In this document: piece by piece, positions 7,104 through 48,708 of the stretch
Layout: the number at the start of each line of letters is the position of its first letter
How positions within the stretch are numbered: the first letter of the stretch is position 1
Source of the DNA: a virus
Length of the DNA stretch: 55,634 nucleotides
IMG/VR virus record: IMGVR_UViG_3300038317_000068
Strand: one strand, 5' to 3'
Program-made: the position numbers and the translations under genes
The notes under the pieces: model-generated
Told to the model about the DNA's origin: nothing
What the model saw: the letters and a program-made list of their open reading frames with translations, nothing else
The model's database searches: none

Positions 7104-7421
7104 TTATAATAATTTCATAATTTCTGGGGCTATTTTAATCCCCACAAGTGCCAGAATTGCAATGAGTAAAACAACAATTATTTTACCCAGCTTATCCGTC
7201 AGTTTCCATGTTTTTTCATTGTGGTCTTGCAATGTTGCCAGCACGTCATTTTTAACATTGGAAAATTCAGTTCTTAAACTCTTGATGTCGGATTTTACTT
7301 CCACATCAACAACATTCATTTTCTTCACCTTTTCTTCCAATTTTTCTATTCTGTCTTCTACACTGCTAACCCGTCGAACCAGTTCACCCATAGAAACCTT
7401 ATTTTGATTTACATCTTCCAT
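7104..7421 (-). CDS. xhlA: XhlA-like lysis-associated membrane protein (105 aa from the internal ATG)
   Basis: ATG at 7421 follows AAGGAGGAGG; coiled-coil N-terminus plus C-terminal TM segment KIIVVLLIAILALVGIKIA; immediately upstream of the endolysin. Confidence 0.65.
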   Translation of the reverse strand: MEDVNQNKVSMGELVRRVSSVEDRIEKLEEKVKKMNVVDVEVKSDIKSLRTEFSNVKNDVLATLQDHNEKTWKLTDKLGKIIVVLLIAILALVGIKIAPEIMKLL

Positions 7422-7444
7422 GTCGACCTCCTCCTTGATTAACC

Positions 7445-7483
7445 AATCATTAAATATATAAGAAAATAAGATAATTATTAAAG
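7445..7483 (-). promoter_or_regulatory. Class II phage promoter (upstream of the lysis genes)
   Basis: Minus strand: CACTTTAA-N17-TATATATTTAATGATT. Confidence 0.65.
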
Positions 7484-7497
7484 TGGTTAAAAGGATT

Positions 7498-32974: not shown

Positions 32975-33775
32975 TTAAACCTCCCTCCATATTTTTCTCA
33001 TGTCCAGTATAAACATATCGAATAATGATTGTTTGCTTACACCCTTAAGAGTAAACTTTTTCTTATAGTCATAAAGAATATACATAGTTTTAAGGTATCG
33101 GTCATCCTTTGTTTCAATAATTCTTTTCCTGCCAACATTAATCATCATATAGAAAAATAATTCCAGTGGATATCCATCTTGGTCATCCTTTATCTGTATA
33201 TGCTTACCGATATTAAAACTGTTTAATGTGCTTACCCTGCCAACATTATCATAAACAGTTTCACAGAACTTGTATAACTTTGCCGCCCCTATATCCTGCA
33301 ATTCTTTTATCTGCCCTATATTTTGAGCACACTGCAATATTAATTTATCGTCAGTTACTTGCTTTAATTGTTCCACTGTATAAGGTTCCAGCCAGTAAGT
33401 TTGTCCCCTGCTTTTTATTGTACTTAATATATTTGCTGGGTCTGTAATACTCATTAAAATATAACAATGCTTCGGCGGTTCTTCTGCCACCTTAAGCAAG
33501 GCATTTTCTGCCTGTGGAGTCATATCATCGGCATCCTTTAAATAATATATAATATCATGGCTTAACTTATTTGCTTCATCAATCAATGCCCTAATATTAT
33601 CCACCTTTAAAGCCTCTGGCTGTACTACTGGCACACCCATTATTTCCGCCAGTGCCTTAACCATTGTGCTTTTTCCCTGCCCTTTGTCCCCTGCTAATAT
33701 AATAAACTGGGGGAGGGCATTTTGTGCCCTTAAATCCCTAAATTTATTGAAAAGTTTTGTTTGTCCTATAAGCAT
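32975..33775 (-). CDS. holB: Clamp-loader delta-prime-like AAA+ subunit (HolB-like, 266 aa)
   Basis: Start MLIGQTKLFNKF follows GGAGGTG; P-loop-like ILAGDKGQGKST; LLKVAEEPP sensor block. Confidence 0.7.
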   Translation of the reverse strand: MLIGQTKLFNKFRDLRAQNALPQFIILAGDKGQGKSTMVKALAEIMGVPVVQPEALKVDNIRALIDEANKLSHDIIYYLKDADDMTPQAENALLKVAEEPPKHCYILMSITDPANILSTIKSRGQTYWLEPYTVEQLKQVTDDKLILQCAQNIGQIKELQDIGAAKLYKFCETVYDNVGRVSTLNSFNIGKHIQIKDDQDGYPLELFFYMMINVGRKRIIETKDDRYLKTMYILYDYKKKFTLKGVSKQSLFDMFILDMRKIWREV

Positions 33776-34806
33776 AACATCAGCACCTCCGCCTCGATAA
33801 GCGGTTTTACATTGCTTTCCCATTTAATCTTCGCATTAAGTTCGATAAATGTTTGTAATACTTCCTTAAAGAAATCAGTTTCATTATCCCTGTATTCATC
33901 CAAATCTTCGGCATATAATTTCGGGATACTAATATAATCAAAGTTACCCAGCAACTTATATTTTATAATATCGAGTAAAAAATAACTGTATAACTTTGCA
34001 AACTGCTTAAGGTCTTTGCCGTCCATGTAAAGCCCTTCAATTATTTCAATACATTTATCGGCATGTTCTGCCAGTATTTCATCAGTAAGTTTGAAAAATG
34101 TTGCATAATCTGCCGAACCGAGTGCATTTACCACATTTTCAAGGGTTATATTTTCATTATAACCACAACATTTATCCAGCATGGTAATTGCATCTCGCAT
34201 TCCACCCTCTGCCAGCTTTGCAATATATTCGAGGGCATCCTGTTCATAATTATAAAATCCATCTGGTCCACCCTTACCCATTATTTCTTCATTTTCCATT
34301 GTGAGTATATATTGCAACCTTTTAACGATATTTACTGTACTGTGTTTTTTAATATCAAACCTTTGCACCCTGCTTAATATTGTTGCTGGTATTTTCTGAG
34401 GGTCAGTTGTGCACATCATAAAAATTGTTTTAACTGGGGGTTCCTCTAATACTTTCAGCATTGCATTCCATGCACCAGTTGTCAACATATGGCACTCATC
34501 TATAATATAAACTTTCCATTCACAGTCCATGGCTTTAAACTTGCTGTCGTCTATAATAGCCCTTACATTATCAACTCCGTTATTACTTGCACCATCTACT
34601 TCAATCGGTTGCCCTTTGCCGCCATTTATTGCACTTGCTAATATTCTCGCCAGTGTTGTTTTTCCTGTCCCTGCTGGTCCTGTGAATAAATATGCTTGCT
34701 TAACTTCCTTTTTATCAATTTGATTCTGTAAAATATGCTTAACATTTTCCTGTCCAACCACATCATCAAAGGTTTTAGGTCTGTACTTTGTTGCTAAAGA
34801 TTCCAT
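33766..34806 (-). CDS. dnaX: Clamp-loader ATPase DnaX (gamma-like, 346 aa)
   Basis: KYRPKTFDDVVGQENV, GPAGTGKTT, IIDECHML, LKVLEEPP, SRVQRF. Confidence 0.9.
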   Translation of the reverse strand: MESLATKYRPKTFDDVVGQENVKHILQNQIDKKEVKQAYLFTGPAGTGKTTLARILASAINGGKGQPIEVDGASNNGVDNVRAIIDDSKFKAMDCEWKVYIIDECHMLTTGAWNAMLKVLEEPPVKTIFMMCTTDPQKIPATILSRVQRFDIKKHSTVNIVKRLQYILTMENEEIMGKGGPDGFYNYEQDALEYIAKLAEGGMRDAITMLDKCCGYNENITLENVVNALGSADYATFFKLTDEILAEHADKCIEIIEGLYMDGKDLKQFAKLYSYFLLDIIKYKLLGNFDYISIPKLYAEDLDEYRDNETDFFKEVLQTFIELNAKIKWESNVKPLIEAEVLMLCL

Positions 34807-35164: not shown

Positions 35165-35506
35165 TTAATCCTCACCATACAATTCCTTCCATGCCTTATA
35201 TAATTCATTAAAATCATCTTCGGGTAATGCCACATAAGATTTTCGAGGGTCACCATAATTAAACCTTATGCCACAGAACCTTCGCCCCATACTAAACATT
35301 TCTTCTTTTATCTTGTCAAACCATGATTTTTTTAGACTTACACTTTGTTGAAGTTTTGTTACTGTTTTATCATCAAGCAATGTATATTTATCTATTAAAT
35401 CACCTTTCATAAAAGGGGTTGCACCACTGTTCGGCTGTTGTTTCATACCCAGTGTTTTCGCCCCTTGTTTTTCACTCTTATCGCTGTAATATCTTGTTGG
35501 CTTCAT
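35165..35506 (-). CDS. Putative PD-(D/E)XK-type nuclease or resolvase-like protein (113 aa)
   Basis: PNSGATPFMKGDLIDKYTLLDDKT resembles the SG..KGD...(D/E)xK pattern of small phage nucleases. Confidence 0.35.
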   Translation of the reverse strand: MKPTRYYSDKSEKQGAKTLGMKQQPNSGATPFMKGDLIDKYTLLDDKTVTKLQQSVSLKKSWFDKIKEEMFSMGRRFCGIRFNYGDPRKSYVALPEDDFNELYKAWKELYGED

Positions 35507-35928
35507 TCACTTTCCTCCTTTTTTATATCCCTGCTTATCCTTAATAAATATGATGCTGTGCCTGTAACCCATGGGTCATCCAGTGGTAAGTGAAATCCTG
35601 TACCGGCATCCCAGTCTGAAAAGGCTTCAGCATATGGCACTTTCGCCGCTATTTCTGGATATTGTGCTTGTAATTTTACAAGTTCCCTGCCCCAGTGGTC
35701 AAACTGCTGGTCAGTTATAAGATTTTCATTTATCCTATAATATAAACAACTATGAACCAGCATTTGTCTTCGTCGCCTATTTATTAGTTCATATATTTTC
35801 TGGTCTTCTGGGCTTAAATGTAGGGGCTGGGGCTTATGGATTGGCTCTTGGTTTTTCCTTGCCTGTGCCTTTGCCTGTGCCTTTTTCTGTGGCTTTACTG
35901 GCATATTAAATAATGTTTTCTGTGCCAT
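35503..35928 (-). CDS. Small protein with an N-terminal QxTLF peptide and an NAD-ligase domain-Ia-like helical segment (141 aa)
   Basis: MAQKTLFNMPVKP...; LVHSCLYYRINENLITDQQFDHWGRELVKLQAQYPEI resembles the LigA Ia pattern (YY..d.P.isD.eyD.L..eL..lE..yPe). Confidence 0.45.
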   Translation of the reverse strand: MAQKTLFNMPVKPQKKAQAKAQARKNQEPIHKPQPLHLSPEDQKIYELINRRRRQMLVHSCLYYRINENLITDQQFDHWGRELVKLQAQYPEIAAKVPYAEAFSDWDAGTGFHLPLDDPWVTGTASYLLRISRDIKKEESE

Positions 35929-37196: not shown

Positions 37197-38359
37197 GATA
37201 TAACTTTGTTTACTTGTTTTGCAATATCATTAAACACAATCGGTTCACTTCTTAAATATTCGAGAAGTTTTGGTCTACCTTGAAATTTAAGTGGTTCATC
37301 ATTTTCATCACACATTATTTCCCCAGTTTCAATATCTAAAATATTAAACCATGCACCGCTCTGTCTTATAATGTCATACTTAATAGCAAGGTCAACGGTA
37401 TCCGCCAGCACATCAATTCCAGTTTTATATTTCAGTGTATAAAATCCCATTCGGCGGTCTGGTCTACATATTTTAGTTTTAGCAATATCCATATTTACGA
37501 GATTTCCTGCTGGTTCTGTCGCCTTATTATTTGCCAGTTCTTGATTATCCTCAGTTATAAATACCCCTTTTCTAAATAAGATTCGCACTGCATACAGATG
37601 TTTTAATGCCCTGCCGCCACTTGTCTTATACAGGTTATAAGGGTTCTCAATATCTTCCCTTACTTGGTTTATCATAATTAAGGCAACTTTATACTTATTC
37701 AGTAAAGGCGAAACCCTTGCTGAAAATTGTGCCATTGTGCCAGCAACACCACAATAAGCCTTCTTTTCCAGTGTTTCCTCATATAGTTGCTGTGGTATTA
37801 GCATCGGGATACTATCAACAACCACAATGCAAACATCCCCCGATTTAATAATATCAAGTACCATTTGTAATATCTGTTCGGCTGTTTGATTTTGTGGTCT
37901 GATTAAATACAAGTTATCAACATCAACACCGTTAAGCCTTGCCCAGTCTTCGTCCAGTGTATTTTCGGCGTCAACATATACAGCCTTTTTCGGTCCTTGT
38001 TCTTTAATGTTATCAATATCCTGCTGTAACTGCTGAATCCTTTTCTGGTCAGATTTATTATTCTTTGCTTGTAATTCATCCAATTCGGTTTCCATGCTAT
38101 CGAGTGCTTCATTATATTCCCTTAAGGCTTTTTTCTGTGCTTGCCCTACACAATCAAGGGCTGTGGTTGTTTTGCCGCCACCCTCACTTCCAAAGAATTC
38201 AACTGCCTTACCTACTGGGATTCCACCATAAAGCAAGTAATTTGCTCTCGGGCTGGAAAATGGTATTCTTTCACTATAAATAATGCTCGTGCCTTTTACC
38301 ACAATATTTTCCTTAAACTTTTTATTTATATCATTCATTAGTAAATCAAGATTATTCAT
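37190..38359 (-). CDS. recA: RecA-like recombinase with a coiled-coil insertion of about 45 aa after the Walker A helix (389 aa)
   Basis: FFGSEGGGKTTTAL (Walker A); AVYVDAENTLD; VVVDSIPML (Walker B); insertion KALREYNEALDSMETELDELQAKNNKSDQKRIQQLQQDIDNIKEQGP. Confidence 0.85.
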   Translation of the reverse strand: MNNLDLLMNDINKKFKENIVVKGTSIIYSERIPFSSPRANYLLYGGIPVGKAVEFFGSEGGGKTTTALDCVGQAQKKALREYNEALDSMETELDELQAKNNKSDQKRIQQLQQDIDNIKEQGPKKAVYVDAENTLDEDWARLNGVDVDNLYLIRPQNQTAEQILQMVLDIIKSGDVCIVVVDSIPMLIPQQLYEETLEKKAYCGVAGTMAQFSARVSPLLNKYKVALIMINQVREDIENPYNLYKTSGGRALKHLYAVRILFRKGVFITEDNQELANNKATEPAGNLVNMDIAKTKICRPDRRMGFYTLKYKTGIDVLADTVDLAIKYDIIRQSGAWFNILDIETGEIMCDENDEPLKFQGRPKLLEYLRSEPIVFNDIAKQVNKVISE

Positions 38360-39035
38360 TAAGTGCACCCCCTGCATATTTACAATCTTCATGGCATACT
38401 GGGCATTTAATAATATTAAATGTCAATACAGGGCACTCCTTTTTCAATAAGTCGAACAACTTAAGGGATAATTCTCTGATTTCCCATTGTGCTCGCTGGC
38501 ATAACCTTAATTGTAAGAAGTGTCTTAATTCCCTTGCATTCATAGTCATAACCATATTCGAATCTGTTGCAATAGGTAAGGTATATCTTGCATCTTCCTT
38601 TGGTATATCCAAACCCCTTAAATCCTTGTATGCCTGTTTCATGTTATTCATGGCACTTATATAAATTTTCAGTGCCTTTTCATTTTCTCTTATTGTTGGC
38701 GGCACAACATAACTAAAATATTCAGCATCAACATACCTTTGAGATTGTATGGAATAACTTGAAACCCTGTGTCGAGTAAGTTGCTGTTGTGTAACCCTAC
38801 TTACACCCTCAATATAGAATGTAAAGTTTACATGTTCAATCGGGCTTTCATGCCCCATTAATAACTTTTCCCTTACAAACTTCTCCATCTTTTCCTTATC
38901 TGGAATATCACCTATGCTGGTTTCAGTCACAGGTATTTTAATCTCATGTGGCTTTACTTTGCTATAACATGTCTTATATGCCACATACAATAATTCGAGT
39001 GGGCTTTGTGTGTCCCTTGCTAAATATACCTCCAT
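38352..39035 (-). CDS. thyX: Flavin-dependent thymidylate synthase ThyX (227 aa)
   Basis: ThyX signature LTRHRVSSYSIQSQRYV. Confidence 0.92.
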   Translation of the reverse strand: MEVYLARDTQSPLELLYVAYKTCYSKVKPHEIKIPVTETSIGDIPDKEKMEKFVREKLLMGHESPIEHVNFTFYIEGVSRVTQQQLTRHRVSSYSIQSQRYVDAEYFSYVVPPTIRENEKALKIYISAMNNMKQAYKDLRGLDIPKEDARYTLPIATDSNMVMTMNARELRHFLQLRLCQRAQWEIRELSLKLFDLLKKECPVLTFNIIKCPVCHEDCKYAGGALNE

Positions 39036-39299: not shown

Positions 39300-39815
39300 T
39301 TATTTTACCCCAGTGCTACCTATGCCGCCCCTGTTCGGGTTTCCCAGTTTTTCAACCTCTTGAAATAACACTGGGGGCATTTTCGGCATAATTCTGAATT
39401 GAAGTAATCTGTCATACTTTGCAACCTTGCCGTCTTTTAGTGCATAAAACATTCCTATCCACTGGTCGTCATCACCACAGTAACAATTATCAATCATGCC
39501 AACACTGTTCACCAGTATTAAGCCATAATGTTTAAATGTCGAACTTCTTGGCAATACATGAGCTTCAGCATTATTCGGCAACTGCATTGCAACCCCTAAA
39601 TTAAATTTTACAACATCACCAGCCTTATAAGAAAGTTCACCCTTTTCATCATATGATACAGGCTTACCATTTACTTCGGCTTCTGCAATTCTTAAATCAA
39701 CCCAGTCCCCTTTTTCTGTAACTGCCAGCTTCGGCATACTTTTGTCAAAGTATTTAATTTTTATGCCCAGTTTTGGCATTTGTCCGATTACTGGTATTCC
39801 TTTAATTCCTGCCAT
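39300..39815 (-). CDS. dut: dUTPase (trimeric type, 171 aa)
   Basis: PRSSTFKHYGLILVNSVGMIDNCYCG and C-terminal NRGGIGSTG. Confidence 0.88.
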   Translation of the reverse strand: MAGIKGIPVIGQMPKLGIKIKYFDKSMPKLAVTEKGDWVDLRIAEAEVNGKPVSYDEKGELSYKAGDVVKFNLGVAMQLPNNAEAHVLPRSSTFKHYGLILVNSVGMIDNCYCGDDDQWIGMFYALKDGKVAKYDRLLQFRIMPKMPPVLFQEVEKLGNPNRGGIGSTGVK

Positions 39816-41226: not shown

Positions 41227-42000
41227 TTACCACTTATTACATTCTTTTTTATACCTGCAATAAGTGCAATCCTTTTTTATAGTGCTTTTCGGAGGAACTT
41301 CACCCTTTGCAACATATTCATCACAAGTGTTTATTTTACCAACAACTCGCTCCTCTTTCATTTCATCTGTAACATGCACTAAAAAAGTTTTCAAATCACA
41401 ACTATCACGATTTTCGTAAATAAATATAATGTTATCAACACCTAAACAAACACTGTAAGAGCTTGCCTGTGTAATGTGGTCATCATATGGTTGAACTTGC
41501 CCTTGCCATTTGTAAAAACTCTCAGTCTTAATTTCAACAATATAATATTTGCCCTTATACTTTATTAAACCATCACAAAGGAAATTGATATTTAATATTG
41601 TATTTCGGCATTTTGTTTCCATCCCTGATTGTCTTTCAACAATGGTTCCCTCTACTGGATGTGTCTTTAAAAATTCAGCCACATTAATCCATTCACAGTC
41701 AAACCCCATAGCTTGCATCTTACTAATTGCCGTCTGTATGGTTACATGTCGGTCAGTTCCGCTGGCTGTTTGCCCTATATTTGTATAACTTCTATCTTCG
41801 TCATCTGGGGTTGCCCCAGTAACTTGAAAATATAAGTTTCTCATACAGCCCCCCAGTGAAGAAGGTTTATAGGTCTTACTGGGAGTATGGCTTTCATCGG
41901 CTTTTTCAATGGTAACTGTTAAGTCCTGTAAAAATTGGTCTTGTATGGGCTTAACCTTTGAAGCCTCATTTATAAGTTTTGCAAGGTTCTTAAGTGCCAT
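41227..42000 (-). CDS. Cas4/RecB-family PD-(D/E)XK exonuclease with a 4-Cys cluster (257 aa)
   Basis: N-terminal Cys in LGGCMRNLYF; DGLIKYKGKYYIVEIKT; QASSYS; C-terminal CTYCRYKKEC. Confidence 0.8.
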   Translation of the reverse strand: MALKNLAKLINEASKVKPIQDQFLQDLTVTIEKADESHTPSKTYKPSSLGGCMRNLYFQVTGATPDDEDRSYTNIGQTASGTDRHVTIQTAISKMQAMGFDCEWINVAEFLKTHPVEGTIVERQSGMETKCRNTILNINFLCDGLIKYKGKYYIVEIKTESFYKWQGQVQPYDDHITQASSYSVCLGVDNIIFIYENRDSCDLKTFLVHVTDEMKEERVVGKINTCDEYVAKGEVPPKSTIKKDCTYCRYKKECNKW

Positions 42001-43055
42001 TACTTATCATCCCCACCCATTAAGCACAGGATTTCGGTTACTGCACCATCTTTTAATTTAATTACTGTATCGTTACCATAATACAGTTCGAATGTGTCTG
42101 CCTGTATTGCATTGATTAAAGCCGATAAAAGTGTGATATTTACTGTACCCATATAATCCGCAAAGTTTTCACTTGAAAGATAAGGTACAAGTTCAGTATT
42201 TTCACCCTTTACATCTGTAAGCATTAATCCTTCCTTTGTAAAGGTAAGCACCACACCATTATTATCATAAGGGCTTACAAAGATATTCAATCTGTCAAGT
42301 ACATTGCTTATTGCTACCTTTGAAAGTTTGCACTTGCTGGGATATTCGAATGCTAAAATATTATTCAAATCTGGATAATCTTCTATGCCAGCCAGTTCAG
42401 CACCAAACACCACAATATTATCACTGGTAAACAGTAATTTTCCGTCACTGTGTTTTATCATAACTTTTTCGGCTGTCAATGTGCTTAACAAGTTTGCCAA
42501 TTCCTGTGTCAAGAGCACTGGTTCATCCAATACCTTAACTTCATTGATACACATTTTCACCCCATCTGTAGTAATTGCTTTATCTCCTAAATTAAATCCA
42601 GTTAAGCAAGGCATTGTCATATCAGTTGCAAGTGAAGCCTTATTTACTGTAAAAATGTTCTTTAATTGTGCTGTACTTATCACCTTACCTTCCACACTGT
42701 CATCAAATTCATATTCTGGGTATTCTTCATTTAATACAGGGATTTTATAATTACCATTTCCCTTTACTGCCAGATGGTCTTCCTTAAGTTCCATTTTAAT
42801 TGTTTCAACGGTTGTCCTGCTTACCAATTTCATAAACTGGTTGGCTGGCACAATTACCTCACCGTCTTCACCTACCACATTCTTTTCAATTACATTAATG
42901 TAATTATTAATATCTGTGGCTGTAATTGTCAAGGTTCTGTCTTTTTCCTGTAAGTGTAAAAAACTTGTTATCGGCAATAATTTATTATTACCAACACCCT
43001 TCTGAGCCTTCCCGAGCATATCGCTCAAGGTTGCTGTCTTGATTTCAAGTTTCAT
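42000..43055 (-). CDS. dnaN: DNA sliding clamp, bacterial beta (DnaN) type (351 aa)
   Basis: N-terminus MKLEIKTATLSDMLGKAQKGVGNNKLLPITSFLHLQEKDRTLTITATD; three-domain length. Confidence 0.85.
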   Translation of the reverse strand: MKLEIKTATLSDMLGKAQKGVGNNKLLPITSFLHLQEKDRTLTITATDINNYINVIEKNVVGEDGEVIVPANQFMKLVSRTTVETIKMELKEDHLAVKGNGNYKIPVLNEEYPEYEFDDSVEGKVISTAQLKNIFTVNKASLATDMTMPCLTGFNLGDKAITTDGVKMCINEVKVLDEPVLLTQELANLLSTLTAEKVMIKHSDGKLLFTSDNIVVFGAELAGIEDYPDLNNILAFEYPSKCKLSKVAISNVLDRLNIFVSPYDNNGVVLTFTKEGLMLTDVKGENTELVPYLSSENFADYMGTVNITLLSALINAIQADTFELYYGNDTVIKLKDGAVTEILCLMGGDDK

Positions 43056-43089: not shown

Positions 43090-43128
43090 TTACATTAAAT
43101 ATATAGTAAATAACCAGCTTTATTAAAG
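43090..43128 (-). promoter_or_regulatory. Class II phage promoter
   Basis: Minus strand: AGCTTTAA-N17-TATATATTTAATGTAA. Confidence 0.7.
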
Positions 43129-43947
43129 CTGGTTATTAAAATCTTTTAAATTTTTTCTTATGCCTACAACCCACAACAAATCATCAGGCTGTATATATGG
43201 CAAACATTTTGCTTCATATATGGGGTCTAATAAATAGCCATGATATTCATTATTTTCATATGGCTTATGATAATCATAATCACTTTGTATGAGTGTAAGC
43301 ATTTGCCGCCATTCTTTCGGGGCATATTCATTAAGTCTTTTCAATGGGTCTGCACCCACTTGAACCCCGATTACTGGTATCCTTTTATTAAAATGCTTAA
43401 GCCCCCACAATACACCAGCACAACTCATCCCACTGCCTATCGGTACAATAATTCTTTTTACTTCATCTGGAATATTTTTTACTTGGAGTAATGTTTGTCT
43501 TACTGCACCCCAGCACTCCATTCCGAACGGTATTTCTGTCCATTTACTTTTAAAGGCATCTTCTCTCGCCCTTGCAATTATTACTGAATTATGCCATATA
43601 TCATCATGTATTATTAATTCAGCACCAGCGTCAATCGCTGTTTGTAGTTCGGGAGTAATACCGCCCCTTATTGTGTGCACCCTACAAGGGATATTCATAT
43701 ACTTTGCAATATTAGCAACAATCTCAATCTGTGGGCTTTGCCTTGCTCCTGCTGTAACCAACCCTTTCGCTCCCTGTGCTAAATAATAAGCACTTCGCAC
43801 CTTGCCACCAGCCACTCCAGCAAGTTCATACAGGTCATCCCTTTTAATAAAAATATCTCCTATCTTTTGCACAGGGGTAAGGGGATAATCCCCGTCTGCC
43901 CTTGCAATTAAAGTATCCAAATCAAATAAAGTATTTTGTTTCATCAT
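43123..43947 (-). CDS. PLP-dependent enzyme of the D-cysteine desulfhydrase / ACC deaminase family (fold type II) with an N-terminal QNTLF peptide (274 aa)
   Basis: Blocks align by eye with E. coli DcyD: IFIKRDD, GGKVRS (PLP lysine), LVTAGARQS, IIVPIGSGMSCAG, VIGVQV, GYLLDPIYEAK. The ATG overlaps the methyltransferase stop (ATATGATGA). Confidence 0.8.
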   Translation of the reverse strand: MMKQNTLFDLDTLIARADGDYPLTPVQKIGDIFIKRDDLYELAGVAGGKVRSAYYLAQGAKGLVTAGARQSPQIEIVANIAKYMNIPCRVHTIRGGITPELQTAIDAGAELIIHDDIWHNSVIIARAREDAFKSKWTEIPFGMECWGAVRQTLLQVKNIPDEVKRIIVPIGSGMSCAGVLWGLKHFNKRIPVIGVQVGADPLKRLNEYAPKEWRQMLTLIQSDYDYHKPYENNEYHGYLLDPIYEAKCLPYIQPDDLLWVVGIRKNLKDFNNQL

Positions 43948-44930
43948 ATAATCACTTCCCCGAAGATATCTTTTATTTTACTGGTATCCCCTTTATAAAA
44001 TACAAGGATATTCTGATGCATTTTACCGAACTTCCTGCCGCTGTTAAACTGTTTATTTATTCTCACTGGGAGTGTTCCTGCTGTATTTACTAATATGGCT
44101 TCATTGTAATACTGCAAGCCAGCATTTTTAAAGGCTCTAATTGTATCACCTACAAAGTTTCTATAAATGCCATCTTTATCTCTTATTTCACCAACAACAA
44201 ACACCGCAAACCTATTTTCCTTCAAGTGCCTTGCACAATTTTCGATTATTAAATTATACACCCTTAAAAAATCTCCATAGGTTTCTTTATTACTTAAGTC
44301 CACAGGGTTGTCGCTATATACTTCAAGGTCATAATAAGGAGGGCAACTAAATATTAAATCATATTCAGCCTGTGGGTCTATTATACCAACATTTACACTA
44401 TTGCCACATATCCATTCTGGGGGATATTCCTTATCCCTTTTATCAATTATTTTGCCTTTAATTGCATTATAATTAATGTTGTTGGCATCTATCTGTTCCT
44501 GTCTTAAATCAATTCCCCTGTAATTCCTTTTTAAATAACTTGCTACCACACCCCTAACACTTCCACCAGCAAAGGGGTCTATAATTCTCCAACCTTCCAA
44601 ACTGAACCAGCGATAAACTATTTCACATAATACAGGGTCGAAAATACTGGTTGCCTGTATTTTTCTTCCATACTTTTCACCTATGCTATCAGGTAAACAT
44701 TTTCCGAACTTTGTTTTATCATCATTTCCGTCAAGTTGATTGTCGCCCCTACCCAGTTCGCTCTTAATACCTAAATTAAGCCAATCATGTTTCCTCTCCT
44801 GCCAGTAACCTTGTTTCGTATCAAATACACTAAATGGGGGCACTAAAAATCTATCTGTCAATGCTCTGCTGTCCCCCTTTTTCATTTTAAATAAAGTGCC
44901 TTGTTTATTTGTTATTTTTTCAACTGCCAT
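43944..44930 (-). CDS. DNA amino-methyltransferase-fold enzyme (N6-A/N4-C type; motif I precedes motif IV) with a QGTLF peptide near the N-terminus (328 aa)
   Basis: SIFDPVLCEIVYRWFSLEGWRIIDPFAGGSVRG (motif I); DLIFSCPPYYDLEVY (motif IV, CPPY); start by TAATG overlap with the PolA stop; RBS GAGGAGG. Confidence 0.8.
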   Translation of the reverse strand: MAVEKITNKQGTLFKMKKGDSRALTDRFLVPPFSVFDTKQGYWQERKHDWLNLGIKSELGRGDNQLDGNDDKTKFGKCLPDSIGEKYGRKIQATSIFDPVLCEIVYRWFSLEGWRIIDPFAGGSVRGVVASYLKRNYRGIDLRQEQIDANNINYNAIKGKIIDKRDKEYPPEWICGNSVNVGIIDPQAEYDLIFSCPPYYDLEVYSDNPVDLSNKETYGDFLRVYNLIIENCARHLKENRFAVFVVGEIRDKDGIYRNFVGDTIRAFKNAGLQYYNEAILVNTAGTLPVRINKQFNSGRKFGKMHQNILVFYKGDTSKIKDIFGEVII

Positions 44931-47260
44931 TATACAGCAACCTCCTCGCCATACCATTTTTCAGTAATTTCAATATCGCACTTCATAGGAACTTTTAAGT
45001 GTGAAGCCCCTATCATTGTTTCTTGTATCAATTCCCTTACCCTTCTTGCATTTTCTTTCGGGCATGTGCCTATTATTTCATCATGCACTGTAAGCAATAA
45101 CTTAAATTGTAATTGTCTTAATTCTTCATTGTTATAAAGATGGATTATTGCCAACTTGGTCATATCTGCCGAACTACCTTGAATTCTGGCATTTACACAC
45201 TGTCTCTCCGCCTGTGCAATAAAGCCGCCATTATCCTTTATCTTTATACCTTCCGCCTTTGCCTTTGCTTTAATATTGTTTTTCTCTGATACTTTCCATG
45301 TGTTGTTCAATAATGCTGAATAACTTTGCACTAAATATTCGGGCACTTCTGTATTTACTTCAGTTATGCCGTCATCGTCAAAGAATGGATTAAATGTTGC
45401 CACATTGTTGATATAATTGAATTCATATTTTGGTAACTGTATATCTGGCAATCTTCTTTTTCTGCCATAAATTGTCGTAACATAACCGAATTCCTTTGCC
45501 ATTGTAATTGATTGTTCGACGAAGGCTTTAACTTTTGGAAACATTGTAAAGAATTCATCAATAATACTTTGTGCTTCCTTTTTACTAATGTTCAACTCTG
45601 ATGCAATACTTGCCGCACCCCTGCCATACATAATTCCTAATACAACACCCTTAATATTTCCTCTTCGTTTTTTACCTTCTGGGTTCGTTGTACCGTCTGG
45701 GAAAAACTCCAAACAATCTTCATAAGGTAACTTATAAACCATGCTCGCTATTGTTGCATAAATATCTTTCCCGTCATTGTATGCCTTAATTAAATTTTCA
45801 TCACCGCTAAAATGTGCAAGGCATCGAGGTTCCTGCTGGCTATAGTCACCGCCTATTAATACCCAGCCATTTTCAGCAACAAACATTTTTCGTATATCCT
45901 TATTATGACTCGGGATATTTTGTAGGTTCGGGTCACTACTTGAAAATCTACCAGTTGCCGCACCATATTGATTAAAACTACCATGAACCTTTCCTGTCTT
46001 TTGATTTACAACTGCTGGCAACTTTTCAATATAAGTGCTTAAAAGTTTAAAGATACCTCGATATTCAAGTATTGCCTTTGTAATAGGTAACTTGAAAGTC
46101 TCAATAATCTCTTCACCTGTGCCCCTTGGTTTATCTTTGTCTGGGCTTTTTAACCCCAGCACATCATATAATAAAATTGCCAACTGTTTCGGGCTATTTA
46201 CATTAATAGGGTTTTCCAGTGAAGCATATCCTTTCGGGTTCTTCTTTTTAAATGTCTTAAGTTGTGGCTCAAGCCTTGCATATTCATCATTAATATGGGA
46301 TTGTGCTTTGTCAAGCAACTTATTATATTTTACAGATAATTCCTCTGCATAATCTTCATCTATTTTAACCCCATTACTTTCCATGTTTGCCACTGCTGGT
46401 ATTAATGGCATCTCTATATTTCTAAAGACATAAGCCAAACCATCATATTTCTCGCCCTTATATACAGGGCTGGCACTGTCCAGAAATTGTTCTTGAAATT
46501 TACCTAATACATAAGTCATATATGGGTCTTTTGCCGCATACAGGTAAGCAACCTCAAGCGGTATCCTTGTAAATGGCATCCCCTCAAATAACTTTTCATA
46601 TGTTGCCAGTTCATCGGCACTCTTGCCACTATTTACAACATACTTTTCATATAGATACTTCAAGTTATGAGGTTCGTTTTCGTTAAGCAAGAAACCGCCT
46701 AACATTGTATCCCAGTAAGGTATTAAACCCTCGACCCCTAATTGCCAGTAACATTCTTCAATATCGAACTTTGCATTGTGATAATAAACTTTTACATCCT
46801 GTAAATTCCTTAATTCTTCAGCAACAACTTCCTTCGGGATTTGTCCCTTAACCTTTGCACCAGTAATATAATTAATATGGTTTATAGGAACATAAGCTGG
46901 CTTTTCATCTGGGGTATAAATACAAGCCCCTGCAATCTGGTCATCTATCCAATTTAATCCATCGGTTTCAGTATCCAGCCCCAGCACACCATTTTTTCGA
47001 GCATGTGCCATATATCGCCTAAATTCACCCTCATCCATTATAAGCTGGTATTTTTCTTTTTCTGCACCGAGTTCCCTGTTTACAAGTTCAGTAATTGCTT
47101 TAATTTTCAAGATTATATTATTGCCGCCGCCCCTGCCGCCGCCTTTAATGGTTATAATGTTACCTGTATTGATACGACTCTTGGTTCTACCTACTGCCTT
47201 TTTATCGGCGGCTCTACCAGTTGGTCGGCTTGGCATTTTAAATAATGTGTTTTGTGCCAT
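44930..47260 (-). CDS. polA: Family A DNA polymerase with a 3'-5' exonuclease domain and a 75-aa N-terminal extension starting MAQNTLFKMP (776 aa)
   Basis: Exo motifs LGLDTETDGL, YYHNAKFDIE and YAAKDPYMTY. Pol motif A GGDYSQQEPR; motif B KRRGNIKGVVLGIMYGRG; motif C LTVHDEI. Confidence 0.93.
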   Translation of the reverse strand: MAQNTLFKMPSRPTGRAADKKAVGRTKSRINTGNIITIKGGGRGGGNNIILKIKAITELVNRELGAEKEKYQLIMDEGEFRRYMAHARKNGVLGLDTETDGLNWIDDQIAGACIYTPDEKPAYVPINHINYITGAKVKGQIPKEVVAEELRNLQDVKVYYHNAKFDIEECYWQLGVEGLIPYWDTMLGGFLLNENEPHNLKYLYEKYVVNSGKSADELATYEKLFEGMPFTRIPLEVAYLYAAKDPYMTYVLGKFQEQFLDSASPVYKGEKYDGLAYVFRNIEMPLIPAVANMESNGVKIDEDYAEELSVKYNKLLDKAQSHINDEYARLEPQLKTFKKKNPKGYASLENPINVNSPKQLAILLYDVLGLKSPDKDKPRGTGEEIIETFKLPITKAILEYRGIFKLLSTYIEKLPAVVNQKTGKVHGSFNQYGAATGRFSSSDPNLQNIPSHNKDIRKMFVAENGWVLIGGDYSQQEPRCLAHFSGDENLIKAYNDGKDIYATIASMVYKLPYEDCLEFFPDGTTNPEGKKRRGNIKGVVLGIMYGRGAASIASELNISKKEAQSIIDEFFTMFPKVKAFVEQSITMAKEFGYVTTIYGRKRRLPDIQLPKYEFNYINNVATFNPFFDDDGITEVNTEVPEYLVQSYSALLNNTWKVSEKNNIKAKAKAEGIKIKDNGGFIAQAERQCVNARIQGSSADMTKLAIIHLYNNEELRQLQFKLLLTVHDEIIGTCPKENARRVRELIQETMIGASHLKVPMKCDIEITEKWYGEEVAV

Positions 47261-47274
47261 TACAGCAACCCCCC

Positions 47275-47313
47275 TTACATTAAATATATATTAAAAAGAG
47301 GCACTTCTTAAAG
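47275..47313 (-). promoter_or_regulatory. Class II phage promoter; the -35 box lies inside the terminator hairpin of the SSB gene
   Basis: Minus strand: AGAGGCACTTTAAGAAGTGCCTCTTTTTAA-TATATATTTAATGTAA. Confidence 0.7.
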
Positions 47314-47332
47314 TGCCTCTTCCTAAAATATT

Positions 47333-48218: not shown

Positions 48219-48257
48219 TTACATTAAATATATATTTTCTTCGGCAAGATATTAAAG
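48219..48257 (-). promoter_or_regulatory. Class II phage promoter
   Basis: Minus strand: CACTTTAA-N17-TATATATTTAATGTAA. Confidence 0.7.
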
Positions 48258-48264
48258 TGCAAGC

Positions 48265-48708
48265 CTAAAATTTTTTAATCTGCTGATTACTGGTTGCCAA
48301 CTTAATCCCATACTGTATATTACAATCAGTTTTCTGTGTTTCATCATATGCACCGAACTTAATATAACAATCGTGCATTATATCACCAAACTGTGCTGCA
48401 AACTGTTCTTCCATTTTATTAGTAAAAATAATCACTTGCAATCCATGATTAAGGGCTTCATGATATAATGCCTTTAAATCATCTGGCTGTTCTGTCCATT
48501 CCAGTCCTGCAAGGATTACCCCCTTGTTAAACTTGTCCCTTAACACTGCCGCTATAATTTCACTGGCTGTCATTTCTATTGCTGGCAACTTCCTTAAATG
48601 CTGATTAAAGCAACCTTTACAATTATTATGACAATCATTTGCAATAATGAGAGCCCCTATAAATGGGGCATCTTCTGTTCGTTCATGTGTTATACCTTTA
48701 ATTTTCAT
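48265..48708 (-). CDS. nrdG: Anaerobic ribonucleotide reductase activating protein (radical SAM, 147 aa)
   Basis: CHNNCKGC (CX3CX2C); adjacent to nrdD. Confidence 0.88.
   Translation of the reverse strand: MKIKGITHERTEDAPFIGALIIANDCHNNCKGCFNQHLRKLPAIEMTASEIIAAVLRDKFNKGVILAGLEWTEQPDDLKALYHEALNHGLQVIIFTNKMEEQFAAQFGDIMHDCYIKFGAYDETQKTDCNIQYGIKLATSNQQIKKF

What the first reader, a model, noticed from the sequence alone, without database searches (positions are those of the whole stretch)
43123..47260. PolA, methyltransferase-fold enzyme and DcyD/ACC-deaminase-like PLP enzyme form one translationally coupled unit: candidate co-replicative DNA-modification module
Seen in sequence:
- One class II promoter (47275-47313) precedes three ORFs whose stops and starts overlap: TAATG at 44930 and ATATGATGA at 43944-43947.
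- The second ORF has amino-methyltransferase motifs. Motif I is IDPFAGGSVRG. Motif IV is SCPPYY, with an unusual Cys before PPY.
- The third ORF aligns block by block with fold-type-II PLP enzymes of the DcyD/ACC-deaminase family: IFIKRDD, GGK(PLP-Lys), TAGARQS, GSGMSCAG, LLDPIYEAK.
- All three proteins begin with a QxTLF peptide that resembles a clamp-binding motif (see the separate finding).

Established knowledge:
- Fold-type-II PLP enzymes catalyse beta-elimination and beta-replacement on amino acids. Some attach nucleobase-like nucleophiles to an alanyl skeleton.
- Known phage hypermodification pathways do use PLP enzymes.
- From memory, I know of no described phage DNA-modification system that uses a DcyD/ACCD-type enzyme, and none in which such an enzyme is tethered to the clamp.

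Inference: a small-molecule PLP enzyme has no obvious reason to be co-translated with a replicative polymerase or to carry a clamp-binding-like peptide. The pair may install a non-methyl (amino-acid-derived) adduct or a sulfur-related modification on nascent DNA. Alternatively, the PLP enzyme may process the by-product or co-substrate of the transferase at the fork.
Basis: partly seen in the sequence, partly recalled or inferred. Interest (0 to 1): 0.85.

Follow-up and report, generated by a model that had tools for sequence, protein, structure and literature searches.

The report
Clamp-tethered methyltransferase–PLP DNA modification pair
Right behind its DNA polymerase gene, this phage encodes a DNA-methyltransferase-like enzyme and a vitamin-B6 (PLP) enzyme that many other phages fuse into a single protein, which points to an undescribed chemical decoration of phage DNA rather than plain methylation or amino-acid metabolism.

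Summary
PolA, an N6/N4-type methyltransferase (MTase) with an S-C-P-P-Y motif IV, and a 274-aa fold-type-II PLP enzyme (PALP) form one promoter-to-hairpin unit with overlapping stop and start codons. Each begins with a Q..LF peptide.

- **The MTase–PALP link is real and general.** The PALP family is largely confined to phage sequence. In 73 of 88 PALP-centred loci the same CPPY MTase is fused or nearby, and in about 54 the PALP domain is inserted inside the MTase fold. Of the 150 best cluster representatives, 87 carry both MTase motifs in the same chain.
- **The reverse dependence does not hold.** Only 11 of 86 MTase-centred loci have PALP, so PALP is an MTase-dependent accessory.
- **PALP has a known phage relative.** It scores closer to the ViI gp226-type PLP decarboxylase, which acts on amino-acid adducts in DNA, than to DcyD/ACC deaminase.
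- **Extra fused domains** (GNAT, a 2OG hydroxylase and a weak aminoacyl-transferase-like match) suggest an amine-bearing adduct.
- **The Q..LF peptide** also heads the phage's ligase-like and clamp-loader proteins, and LF peptides replace ParB in ParB-less MTases.

Best reading: a SAM- and PLP-dependent, clamp-tethered DNA hypermodification module, possibly giving aminocarboxypropyl or aminopropyl adducts. The chemistry is untested. I found no description of it in the searchable literature.

The parts
47291..47326 (-). Terminator-like hairpin after the SSB gene, insulating the unit from upstream transcription
   Evidence: 16-pair stem followed by a T run, on the minus strand
47275..47289 (-). 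Phage promoter-like motif ATATATTTAATGTAA upstream of PolA
   Evidence: 13 copies in the window against 1.3 expected; none between this copy and 43104
44930..47260 (-). Family A DNA polymerase with 3'-5' exonuclease domain (776 aa)
   Evidence: DNA_pol_A 3e-105, exo 1e-12; NCBIfam PolI 2e-132, below the equivalog cut-off
47240..47254 (-). N-terminal QNTLF peptide of PolA (residues 3-7), putative beta-clamp-binding motif
43944..44930 (-). N6/N4 amino-methyltransferase-fold enzyme of the 'CPPY' family (328 aa). It is circularly permuted relative to beta-class MTases and lacks the ParB domain found in most relatives
   Evidence: (phrog_12517 9e-99; phrog_498 8e-86)
44889..44903 (-). QGTLF peptide of the MTase (residues 10-14), putative clamp-binding motif
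   Evidence: LF peptides in 54/86 ParB-less homologues against 2/24 with ParB
44550..44582 (-). MTase motif I, IDPFAGGSVRG (SAM-binding loop)
   Evidence: D118, F120, G122, G123 invariant
44331..44348 (-). MTase motif IV, S-C-P-P-Y-Y (catalytic loop; Cys in place of D/N/S)
43123..43947 (-). Fold-type-II PLP enzyme (PALP, 274 aa) of a largely phage-confined clade related to the ViI gp226-type DNA-adduct decarboxylase
43924..43938 (-). QNTLF peptide of PALP (residues 4-8) in a low-confidence, probably flexible N-terminal tail that precedes the conserved core start LTP(V/I)
   Evidence: pLDDT below 50 for residues 1-7
43801..43803 (-). Codon of Lys49, the predicted PLP Schiff-base lysine (GGKVR)
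   Evidence: K49 invariant in 37 sequences
43109..43137 (.). Inverted repeat spanning the PALP stop codon; possible end of the transcription unit
   Evidence: reported as terminator-like on the + strand only
43090..43104 (-). Next copy of the promoter-like motif, in front of the beta-clamp gene
42000..43055 (-). Phage beta sliding clamp (351 aa), presumed docking partner of the Q..LF peptides
   Evidence: DNA_pol3_beta 5e-16; phrog_947 2e-43

Best explanation
The MTase-fold enzyme and the PLP enzyme are the two halves of one DNA hypermodification machine. In most phages the two halves form a single polypeptide.

Proposed mechanism (inferred)
- The MTase-fold half binds SAM and flips out a target base with an exocyclic amine (N4-C or N6-A type).
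- The PLP half works on the amino-acid part of SAM or of the adduct. The base therefore ends up with an amino-acid-derived side chain instead of, or besides, a methyl group.
- The most likely chemistry is transfer of the 3-amino-3-carboxypropyl group of SAM, followed by PLP-dependent decarboxylation on DNA to a 3-aminopropyl group.
- A close variant is PLP-activated gamma-replacement on SAM held in the MTase pocket.

In this phage
- The ParB domain that most relatives use is absent.
- Both enzymes carry an N-terminal Q..LF peptide shared with PolA, a ligase-like protein and a clamp-loader subunit.
- They would therefore ride on the phage beta clamp and modify nascent DNA.
- They are made from the same promoter as PolA, by translational coupling.

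Shown: the operon anatomy, the homologies, the fusion and co-occurrence statistics, and the conservation of the SAM- and PLP-binding motifs.
Inferred: clamp binding, the DNA substrate of PALP, and the chemistry.
For: 1. Physical and functional coupling
- PALP is inserted between the motif I-II region and the III-IV half of the MTase in Pam4 gp70 and in about 54 of 88 PALP-centred metagenomic loci. It is adjacent or nearby in about 19 more, making 73/88.
- Of the 150 best of 486 cluster representatives (E<=1e-30), 87 carry MTase motifs I and IV in the same chain.
- More than 100 clusters with PALP and MTase domains in one chain were listed, about 40 of them also with a ParB hit.
- Mycobacteriophage Vincenzo gp1/gp2 overlap.

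2. PALP is an MTase-dependent accessory
- Only 11 of 86 MTase-centred loci have PALP.
- No residue distinguishes PALP-linked from PALP-less MTases.

3. Both cofactor sites are conserved. The SAM motif I and the acidic motif II residue, together with PLP Lys49 and the GSG phosphate loop, are invariant in stand-alone and fused forms.

4. Kinship with DNA-acting PLP decarboxylases
- hhalign of the family against a ViI gp226 homologue gives probability 98%, E 6.5e-14.
- The same HMM gives 51 bits for the gp226 homologue and 73 bits for the aGPT-Pplase2-linked Montesquieu enzyme, against 40 bits for DcyD.
- They share an S-P-Q loop and a P-x-Y-E-x-K motif.
- The activities of gp226 and gp52 are published (PMC8989533).

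5. Tailoring domains attached to PALP
- A PALP-GNAT fusion lies directly downstream of a CPPY MTase.
- An Asp/Arg beta-hydroxylase domain follows PALP in the fusion P0353.
- A weak LPG_synthase_C-like match (E 5e-4, below the Pfam cut-off) follows PALP in P0318. Clearer matches lie next to a stand-alone PALP in L041.
- A SAM synthetase gene overlaps the PALP start in L189.

6. No other conserved partner gene. The substrates must therefore be ubiquitous, such as SAM, PLP and DNA.

7. DNA tethering
- Q..LF peptides sit on five replication proteins.
- LF peptides substitute for ParB in the MTase family. About 11 of 97 stand-alone PALPs also carry one.
- The N-terminus is disordered in the AF2 model.
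- ParB-like partners of phage DNA-modifying enzymes have experimental precedent (PMC13229309).
Against: - No experiment bears on the adduct.
- The MTase family is closest to ordinary beta-class m4C/m6A MTases (TTHA0409, an N4-cytosine MTase, MboIIA, CcrM, PvuII). Cys for Ser in motif IV is a conservative change.
- 87% of MTase-centred loci lack PALP, so the parsimonious default is that the MTase simply methylates. A methylated base gives PLP nothing to act on.
- Homology to M6 gp52 is weak (probability 45%; 21.6 bits). Reaction type is hard to predict within PLP fold type II.
- The AF2 model of a fusion has pTM 0.56, so no confident inter-domain geometry is available.
- SAM synthetase adjacency was seen in 1 of 189 loci only.
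- Clamp binding of the peptide is inferred from sequence only.
- I know of no report of aminocarboxypropyl or aminopropyl DNA bases. Literature searches found none.
Confidence: 0.5

Rival explanations
1. Ordinary methylation plus cofactor housekeeping. The MTase makes m4C or m6A. PALP, held next to it, destroys the inhibitory by-product S-adenosylhomocysteine, or otherwise processes SAM, through its amino-acid moiety.
For: - The MTase is a close relative of plain beta-class MTases and mostly occurs without PALP.
- MTase residues are the same with and without PALP.
- SAH and SAM are the only amino-acid-bearing molecules in a plain methylation reaction (inference).
- The MetK-PALP adjacency in L189 fits any SAM-linked role.
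Against: - This does not explain fusion of PALP to a GNAT, a 2OG hydroxylase or an aminoacyl-transferase-like domain.
- It does not explain the closer kinship to a DNA-adduct decarboxylase than to cellular lyases.
- It does not explain a separate clamp-type peptide on stand-alone PALP.
- From memory, no PLP-dependent SAH lyase of this fold is known, and hosts already have SAH nucleosidase.
Confidence: 0.2
2. Cofactor editing. PALP decarboxylates SAM to decarboxy-SAM. The MTase-fold enzyme then acts like an aminopropyl transferase (as spermidine synthase does) on the exocyclic amine of a base.
For: - PALP relatives are decarboxylases.
- Spermidine synthase is an MTase-fold enzyme that transfers aminopropyl to an amine (established knowledge, from memory).
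- The module is self-contained.
Against: - The same MTase active-site residues occur with and without PALP. Nothing suggests discrimination for decarboxy-SAM or a changed attack geometry.
- A small-molecule role does not need a clamp peptide on PALP.
Confidence: 0.1
3. PALP performs beta-elimination or beta-replacement, generating an aminoacrylate from Ser, Cys or O-acetylserine and attaching an alanyl group to the base flipped by the MTase domain. Or it supplies sulfur for a thio-modification.
For: - The fold and the nearest solved structures are beta-eliminating lyases: DcyD, threonine deaminase, ACC deaminase.
- The domain insertion could build a composite site.
Against: - SAM-binding motifs are strictly conserved in the fusions, which an alanyl-transfer scaffold would not need.
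- The Asn of the S-N-H/Q loop of DcyD/ACCD is replaced by an invariant Pro.
- No sulfur-transfer or ATP-activating partner is conserved nearby.
Confidence: 0.1
4. PALP is an auxiliary metabolic gene (D-cysteine desulfhydrase, ACC deaminase or threonine dehydratase acting on free amino acids) that merely sits in the polymerase operon.
For: Database names given to homologues ('1-aminocyclopropane-1-carboxylate deaminase/D-cysteine desulfhydrase', 'threonine ammonia lyase').
Against: - NCBIfam scores are far below every equivalog cut-off (48.6 bits against 289 for TIGR01275).
- The family is scarce in cellular genomes: 8 loci, all MAGs, in representative genomes of 185,579 species, against 166 IMG/VR loci.
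- It is fused into a DNA MTase in most members.
Confidence: 0.03

Closest known systems
PLP-dependent decarboxylases of thymidine hypermodification (Salmonella phage ViI gp226, Pseudomonas phage M6 gp52; Lee et al. 2021, PMC8989533)
   Same: - A phage-encoded fold-type-II PLP enzyme of about 280-400 aa.
- ViI gp226 was modelled on the ACC-deaminase homologue 1j0a.
- Significant profile similarity to the gp226 homologue: probability 98%, 51 bits. It shares the S-P-Q loop and the P-x-Y-E-x-K motif.
- These enzymes act on an amino acid appended to a base in polymeric DNA.
- They are accompanied in other phages by acetyltransferases and similar tailoring enzymes.
   Different: - There is no 5-hmdU pathway here. 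No DNA kinase or aGPT-Pplase/AADT was found among the genes scanned next to the unit.
- The partner is a SAM-dependent amino-MTase-fold enzyme, often in the same polypeptide.
- Similarity to M6 gp52 is marginal.
- Decarboxylase activity is not shown for this clade.
ParB-fused N6/N4 MTases of phage 'ParB-terminase large subunit' loci (clade 6 of Iyer, Zhang and Aravind 2016, PMC4738411)
   Same: - The same kind of MTase, to judge from architecture and neighbourhood: a ParB N-terminal domain in many relatives and terminase neighbours.
- It is predicted to modify phage DNA.
   Different: - That paper does not mention a PLP domain (0 occurrences).
- The window protein lacks ParB and has an LF peptide instead.
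- It sits in a polymerase/clamp operon, not next to the terminase.
- Equivalence with 'clade 6' is by description only and was not tested by sequence.
D-cysteine desulfhydrase / ACC deaminase family (TIGR01275; PDB 4d8t, 1j0a, 1tzk)
   Same: - The fold: Foldseek E 9e-13, TM about 0.7.
- The PLP lysine in G-G-K-x-R, the G-S-G phosphate loop, and the D-P-x-Y-x-x-K motif near the C-terminus.
   Different: - About 60 residues shorter.
- Asn of the S-N-H/Q loop is replaced by Pro.
- Scores are far below the family cut-offs.
- Largely confined to phage sequence and mostly embedded in an MTase.
SAM-dependent aminocarboxypropyl and aminopropyl transferases (TYW2, Tsr3, spermidine synthase) and PLP-dependent alkyl transfer from SAM (Mur24). 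Chemical analogies recalled from memory.
   Same: - They show that MTase-fold enzymes can transfer the aminobutyryl or aminopropyl part of SAM to N-nucleophiles.
- They show that PLP can activate SAM for gamma-replacement.
   Different: - No detectable sequence relationship: only N6_N4_Mtase was hit in Pfam.
- Those enzymes act on RNA or small molecules, not DNA.
- The analogy is a lead, not a test.
Beta-clamp-binding peptides of bacterial replication and repair proteins (consensus QL[SD]LF; N-terminal in Hda). From memory.
   Same: - Q-x-x-L-F pentapeptide in a flexible terminal tail.
- Present on the polymerase, a ligase-like protein and a clamp-loader subunit of a phage that encodes its own beta clamp.
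   Different: - Position 2 is not Leu.
- All copies are N-terminal.
- Clients include two DNA-modification enzymes.
- Binding was not tested.

Membership tests
N6/N4 amino-DNA-methyltransferases (Pfam PF01555, beta class) | Score above the Pfam gathering threshold | tested here: met
   49.2 bits against 26.7
N6/N4 amino-DNA-methyltransferases (Pfam PF01555, beta class) | SAM-binding motif I (F-x-G-x-G) followed by an acidic residue at the end of strand 2 | tested here: met
   DPFAGGSVRG and GIDL. D118, F120, G122 and G123 are invariant and D141 nearly invariant in 42 homologues
N6/N4 amino-DNA-methyltransferases (Pfam PF01555, beta class) | Catalytic motif IV (D/N/S)-P-P-(Y/F/W) | tested here: inconclusive
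   The motif is C-P-P-Y. Cys aligns with the Ser of TSPPY in TTHA0409. Cys is found in 96-99% of family members
N6/N4 amino-DNA-methyltransferases (Pfam PF01555, beta class) | Beta-class motif order (IV ... I) | tested here: not met
   Motif I (residues 117-127) precedes motif IV (195-200). The two halves align to beta-class enzymes in swapped order
N6/N4 amino-DNA-methyltransferases (Pfam PF01555, beta class) | Transfers a methyl group to an exocyclic amine of DNA | not testable with these tools
   Needs nucleoside mass spectrometry or an in-vitro assay
D-cysteine desulfhydrase / ACC deaminase family (NCBIfam TIGR01275, TIGR01274, NF003030) | Score above the curated cut-off | tested here: not met
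   48.6 bits against 289.4 (TIGR01275); 20.4 against 392 (TIGR01274)
D-cysteine desulfhydrase / ACC deaminase family (NCBIfam TIGR01275, TIGR01274, NF003030) | PLP lysine, phosphate-binding glycine loop, C-terminal D-P-x-Y-x-G-K | tested here: met
   K49 (GGKVR), GSGMS, LLDPIYEAK. K49, G171, S172, Y244, E245 and K247 are invariant
D-cysteine desulfhydrase / ACC deaminase family (NCBIfam TIGR01275, TIGR01274, NF003030) | S-N-(H/Q) loop, whose Asn contacts PLP O3' (role recalled from memory) | tested here: not met
   The loop is S71-P72-Q73, with Pro invariant. The same S-P-Q occurs in the ViI gp226 homologue and in Vincenzo gp2
Phage PLP decarboxylases acting on amino-acid-modified bases in DNA (ViI gp226 / M6 gp52) | Detectable homology to the characterised enzymes | tested here: met
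   gp226 homologue: hhalign probability 98%, E 6.5e-14; 51 bits. M6 gp52: marginal, probability 45%, 21.6 bits
Phage PLP decarboxylases acting on amino-acid-modified bases in DNA (ViI gp226 / M6 gp52) | Encoded with 5-hmdU DNA kinase and aGPT-Pplase/AADT | tested here: not met
   None was found among the window genes scanned around the unit or among 150 neighbours of 38 MTase-PALP loci. The intermediate relative in phage Montesquieu does have that context
Phage PLP decarboxylases acting on amino-acid-modified bases in DNA (ViI gp226 / M6 gp52) | Decarboxylates a DNA-linked alpha-amino acid | not testable with these tools
   Needs a biochemical assay
Beta-clamp-binding proteins | Short Q-L-[SD]-L-F-like peptide in a flexible terminus (consensus from memory) | tested here: inconclusive
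   QNTLF, QGTLF and QNTLF. The same peptide is on a ligase-like protein and a clamp-loader subunit. The N-terminal pLDDT is below 50. Binding was not tested

The most novel reading that the evidence does not exclude
The CPPY MTase-PALP enzyme is a composite SAM- and PLP-dependent DNA-modifying enzyme. It installs an aminocarboxypropyl or aminopropyl (or otherwise amino-acid-derived) side chain from SAM on an exocyclic amine of phage DNA. Such a base modification has not been reported in DNA. In this phage both enzymes would be delivered to nascent DNA through clamp-binding peptides, which would make them the first clamp-tethered hypermodification enzymes.
Probability: 0.35. Interest if true: 0.9.

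Novelty: new variant of a known kind. Interest (0 to 1): 0.75.

Why it matters
- **A possible new source of hypermodification.** Known phage DNA hypermodifications start from hydroxymethyl-pyrimidines, from 7-deazaguanine, or from Mom. A SAM- and PLP-dependent route starting from an amino-MTase fold would add a new source of hypermodified bases and a new use of SAM on DNA.
- **It is widespread and overlooked.** The family has 486 clusters at 50% identity and is mostly annotated as plain 'methylase' or 'ACC deaminase'. One example is ORF1 of Erythrobacter phage R6L.
- **Practical consequences.** Such DNA would affect restriction and CRISPR sensitivity, sequencing signal and phage engineering.
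- **It is testable now.** Cultured phages carry it: Pam4, Vincenzo/AlanGrant and probably R6L.
- **Recruitment is a general question.** ParB domains and LF peptides alternate at the N-terminus of the same enzyme. This suggests two interchangeable ways of delivering modification enzymes to DNA, at packaging or at the replication fork.

Tried and rejected
- **Literature.** Ten full-text searches covered ParB + MTase + PLP, ACC deaminase in phages, 'CPPY', aminocarboxypropyl or aminopropyl DNA, and the named phages. None found a description of the MTase-PALP pair. The 2013 NAR paper of Iyer et al. could not be fetched, so a prediction there cannot be excluded.
- **Cys as a marker of PALP partnership.** Rejected. 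Cys is family-wide, and the two Ser exceptions include one PALP-linked locus.
- **Specificity-determining residues** between PALP-linked and PALP-less MTases. None was found; the best column score was 0.49, in a variable column. A first attempt was spoiled by alignment gaps caused by the insert and was redone after excising PALP.
- **Plasmid ParB-MTases as characterised relatives.** Only one plasmid hit, so no help.
- **Enrichment of SAM, MTA or SAH metabolism genes** around the module. None among 150 neighbours. SAM synthetase was seen once in 189 loci.
- **AF2 of a 702-aa fusion.** Domains are confident (pLDDT 86), but pTM 0.56 and no coordinates were available, so inter-site geometry could not be judged.
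- **phiCTP1 gp52**, which occupies the PALP slot, is not a detectable PALP relative.
- **BFVD fold search** added little.

Full report
**1. What is in the window**

On the minus strand, three ORFs follow one another with overlapping stop and start codons.
- PolA is 44930-47260 (776 aa).
- The MTase is 43944-44930 (328 aa). Its junction with PolA is TAATG.
- PALP is 43123-43947 (274 aa). Its junction with the MTase is ATGA.

Pfam confirms all three.
- PolA: DNA_pol_A 3e-105, plus a 3'-5' exonuclease domain.
- MTase: N6_N4_Mtase, 49.2 bits against a cut-off of 26.7.
- PALP: 36.5 bits against a cut-off of 35.

The flanking genes are replication genes.
- Upstream lie an SSB gene and, further on, an NrdD-like anaerobic ribonucleotide reductase with a small ORF (48265-48708) at the position of its activase. 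These two assignments rest on synteny with phiCTP1 gp46/gp47.
- Downstream lie a beta clamp (42000-43055), a Cas4-like exonuclease and a RecU-like resolvase.

- It occurs 13 times against 1.3 expected. All but one copy are on the minus strand.
- One copy lies at 47275-47289, before PolA. The next lies at 43090-43104, before the clamp gene. None lies in between.
- A strong terminator-like hairpin (47291-47326) precedes the unit.
- An inverted repeat (43109-43137) spans the PALP stop codon.

The three genes are therefore plausibly one transcription and translation unit. The closest cultured relative is Clostridium phage phiCTP1, at about 67% nucleotide identity and with the same gene order.

**2. 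The PLP enzyme**

By sequence and by predicted structure it is a fold-type-II PLP enzyme.
- The AF2 model has pLDDT 91 and pTM 0.89.
- Its nearest solved relatives are D-cysteine desulfhydrase, threonine deaminase and the ACC-deaminase homologue 1j0a. Foldseek E is about 1e-12 and TM about 0.7. Sequence E-values are 4e-6 and 7e-5.

It is not a member of those cellular families.
- NCBIfam scores are far below the cut-offs, for example 48.6 bits against 289.
- It is about 60 residues shorter.
- The Asn of the S-N-H/Q loop is an invariant Pro.

The family is largely confined to phage sequence.
- A homologue search found 936 proteins, the best 120 at 50-60% identity.
- There were 166 confirmed IMG/VR loci.
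- There were only 8 loci, all MAGs, in representative genomes of 185,579 species.
- An exhaustive HMMER search gave 486 cluster representatives at E<=1e-30.

**3.

Lee et al. 2021 (PMC8989533) purified M6 gp52 and ViI gp226. They showed that both are PLP-dependent decarboxylases acting on amino-acid-conjugated thymidines in DNA.
- ViI gp226 was modelled there on 1j0a.
- The profile of the window's family matches a ViI gp226 homologue (Maynard_28) at probability 98%, E 6.5e-14.
- At equal database size the same HMM gives 73 bits for the Glutamicibacter phage Montesquieu enzyme, 51 bits for the gp226 homologue, 40 bits for DcyD and 22 bits for M6 gp52.
- The Montesquieu enzyme lies between an aGPT-Pplase2 gene and the kinase of a thymidine hypermodification cluster.
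- The S-P-Q loop and the P-x-Y-E-x-K motif are shared with the gp226 homologue.

The window's enzyme therefore sits with the phage DNA-hypermodification PLP enzymes. It lacks their usual partners.

**4. The partner is the MTase**

PALP-centred survey:
- Pseudanabaena phage Pam4 gp70 is a single 829-aa protein. In it the PALP domain is inserted between the motif I-II region and the motif III-IV half of the MTase.
- Mycobacteriophage Vincenzo gp1 (annotated ParB-like, containing the MTase) overlaps gp2 (PALP).
- In 88 PALP-centred loci, 73 have this MTase. About 54 are insertional fusions, and the rest are adjacent or nearby genes or split forms.
- Of the best 150 cluster representatives, 87 carry MTase motifs I and IV in the same chain, and 21 are short stand-alone proteins like the window's.
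- A search with one fusion listed more than 100 clusters with PALP and MTase domains in one chain, about 40 of them also with a ParB hit.

MTase-centred survey:
- Only 11 of 86 MTase-centred loci have PALP within 8 kb.
- PALP-linked and PALP-less MTases are interspersed. Mean identity is 0.505 between the groups, against 0.485 and 0.533 within them. No group-specific residue was found.

PALP is therefore an accessory that depends on the MTase, and the MTase active site is the same with or without it.

**5. The MTase**

- Its best solved relatives are ordinary beta-class enzymes: TTHA0409, an N4-cytosine MTase, MboIIA, CcrM and PvuII.
- The two halves align in swapped order, so it is a circular permutation. 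The PALP insertion point is where the termini of beta-class enzymes lie.
- The Cys of S-C-P-P-Y aligns with the Ser of SPPY.
- Cys is a family hallmark: 118/120, 85/86 and 96/98. It is not a marker of PALP partnership. phiCTP1 gp51 and the PALP-adjacent L089 enzyme have Ser.
- Many relatives carry an N-terminal ParB domain, and where immediate neighbours of the fused or paired unit could be named, a terminase was the commonest one. This matches the 'ParB-terminase' MTases described by Iyer et al. (PMC4738411). That paper does not mention PLP.
- The SAM-binding motifs are invariant in stand-alone and fused forms.

**6. Hints on chemistry**

Additional domains or genes attached to PALP are of the 'tailoring' type.
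- A PALP-GNAT fusion lies directly downstream of a CPPY MTase (P0030, L190/L191).
- An Asp/Arg beta-hydroxylase domain follows PALP in the fusion P0353.
- A weak aminoacyl-tRNA-transferase-like match (LPG_synthase_C, E 5e-4, below the Pfam cut-off) follows PALP in P0318. Clearer matches lie next to a stand-alone PALP in L041.
- Thy1-like and NUDIX genes flank a stand-alone PALP in L024.
- A SAM synthetase gene overlaps the PALP start in L189. This was one locus of 189.
- No other partner is conserved among 150 neighbours of 38 loci.

The module therefore seems to need only ubiquitous substrates. A methylated base offers no primary amine to PLP. The only amino-acid moiety in the system is that of SAM, or of a SAM-derived adduct or by-product.

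I therefore favour this reading: the pair puts an amino-acid-derived side chain from SAM on the base.
- One route is aminocarboxypropyl transfer followed by decarboxylation to aminopropyl, by analogy with gp226. In that case the adduct has the same three-atom spacing between ring and C-alpha as O-seryl-thymidine.
- The other route is PLP-activated gamma-replacement on SAM.

This is inference. The precedents (TYW2, Tsr3, spermidine synthase, Mur24) are recalled from memory, and no sequence relationship to them was found.

**7. Tethering to the clamp**

- The Q..LF peptide heads five minus-strand proteins: PolA, the MTase, PALP, a ligase-like protein (35503-35928, phrog_6466) and a clamp-loader subunit (32975-33823, phrog_5846). 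From general knowledge, polymerases, ligases and clamp-loader subunits are classic clamp partners.
- In the AF2 model the peptide lies in a low-confidence N-terminal tail.
- Across the MTase family, 54 of 86 ParB-less members carry an [LMI]F within the first 22 residues (typically MxLFEV), against 2 of 24 ParB-containing members.
- About 11 of 97 stand-alone PALPs carry an x-L-F extension before the conserved core.
- ParB-like proteins are experimentally required partners of some phage thymine dioxygenases (PMC13229309).

The picture is of two alternative ways to bring the same enzyme to DNA. One is a ParB domain, often next to a terminase gene. The other is a clamp-binding peptide next to the polymerase. 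Binding itself was not tested.

**8. The PolA-clamp slot is variable**

In relatives of this phage the CPPY MTase stays in place, but its neighbours change.
- A TET-associated glycosyltransferase plus UDP-sugar enzymes (L182).
- A PAPS-reductase-like protein plus Mom (L183).
- A class I MTase plus a C5 DNA methylase (L185).
- gp50 and gp52 in phiCTP1.

PolA is thus part of the expression unit but not of the conserved functional pair.

**9. Verdict**

The coupling of MTase and PLP enzyme on DNA is strongly supported by comparative genomics. The clamp link is plausible. The chemistry is open.
- I found no description of this composite enzyme in the searchable literature. Published genomes annotate it as a plain methylase, for example R6L ORF1 (PMC5463345).
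- I class it as a new variant of a known kind, namely phage DNA hypermodification with a PLP tailoring enzyme. There is a fair chance of new base chemistry.

Noticed in passing
window 1614-55265 (13 sites, e.g. 47275-47289, 43090-43104, 48219-48233): A phage-specific promoter-like motif, ATATATTTA[A/G]TGTAA, occurs 13 times against 1.3 expected. Almost all copies are on the minus strand, in front of gene blocks. In phiCTP1 the syntenic region has a gene annotated as a sigma factor.
   Followed up: partly
window 35503-35928 and 32975-33823 (minus strand): A 141-aa ligase-like protein (MAQKTLFNMP...) and a clamp-loader subunit carry the same N-terminal Q..LF peptide as PolA, the MTase and PALP. 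That makes five putative clamp clients in one phage.
   Followed up: partly
L182 1418-5984; L183 5001-7902; L185 3186-5939; L001 (phiCTP1) 7350-9358: In relatives, the slot between PolA and the beta clamp is a variable DNA-modification island around the CPPY MTase. Contents seen: TAGT glycosyltransferase + UDP-glucose dehydrogenase + epimerase; PAPS_reduct + Mom; class I MTase + C5 DNA methylase; or two proteins of unknown function.
   Followed up: partly
L035 11010-13421; L044 10506-13112; window MTase residues about 21-67 (44730-44870): The conserved N-terminal module 'RFxVPPFSVLDxxxGxWQxRKxxW' of the MTase is fused to a family A DNA polymerase in two loci, while the MTase there lacks it. 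It is an independent domain of unknown role.
   Followed up: no
L190/L191 5156-8257; proteins P0030, P0353, P0318: Extra domains ride on PALP: GNAT acetyltransferase, Asp/Arg beta-hydroxylase, and a weak (below cut-off) aminoacyl-transferase-like LPG_synthase_C match. This suggests further elaboration of the adduct in some phages.
   Followed up: partly
L189 4917-6801: A SAM synthetase gene overlaps the start of a stand-alone PALP gene that carries an N-terminal MALFEIF peptide, in a contig that also encodes clamp-loader subunits. This was seen in only 1 of 189 loci.
   Followed up: partly
L024 6591-8756; L041 7974-11460; L017 6517-8789: PALP relatives without the MTase nearby sit next to a Thy1-like protein + NUDIX, next to two LPG_synthase_C-like proteins + a class I MTase, or next to an SNF2 helicase. 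Some of these loci are on jumbo-phage-sized contigs.
   Followed up: no
L186 6744-8294: The MTase downstream of PALP is split into N- and C-terminal halves by an HNH_3 endonuclease gene. The split lies at the same junction where PALP is inserted in the fusions.
   Followed up: no
window 47080-47150 (PolA residues about 38-60): PolA has a basic, Gly-rich N-terminal extension (…IKGGGRGGGNN…) between the Q..LF peptide and the exonuclease domain. phiCTP1 PolA starts MALFNF and has a similar basic stretch.
   Followed up: no
window 38352-39035 and 39300-39815: Matches to thymidylate synthase (phrog_85) and dUTPase families lie a few kb downstream of the unit. No hydroxymethylase, kinase or aGPT-Pplase genes were seen among the genes scanned.
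   Followed up: partly
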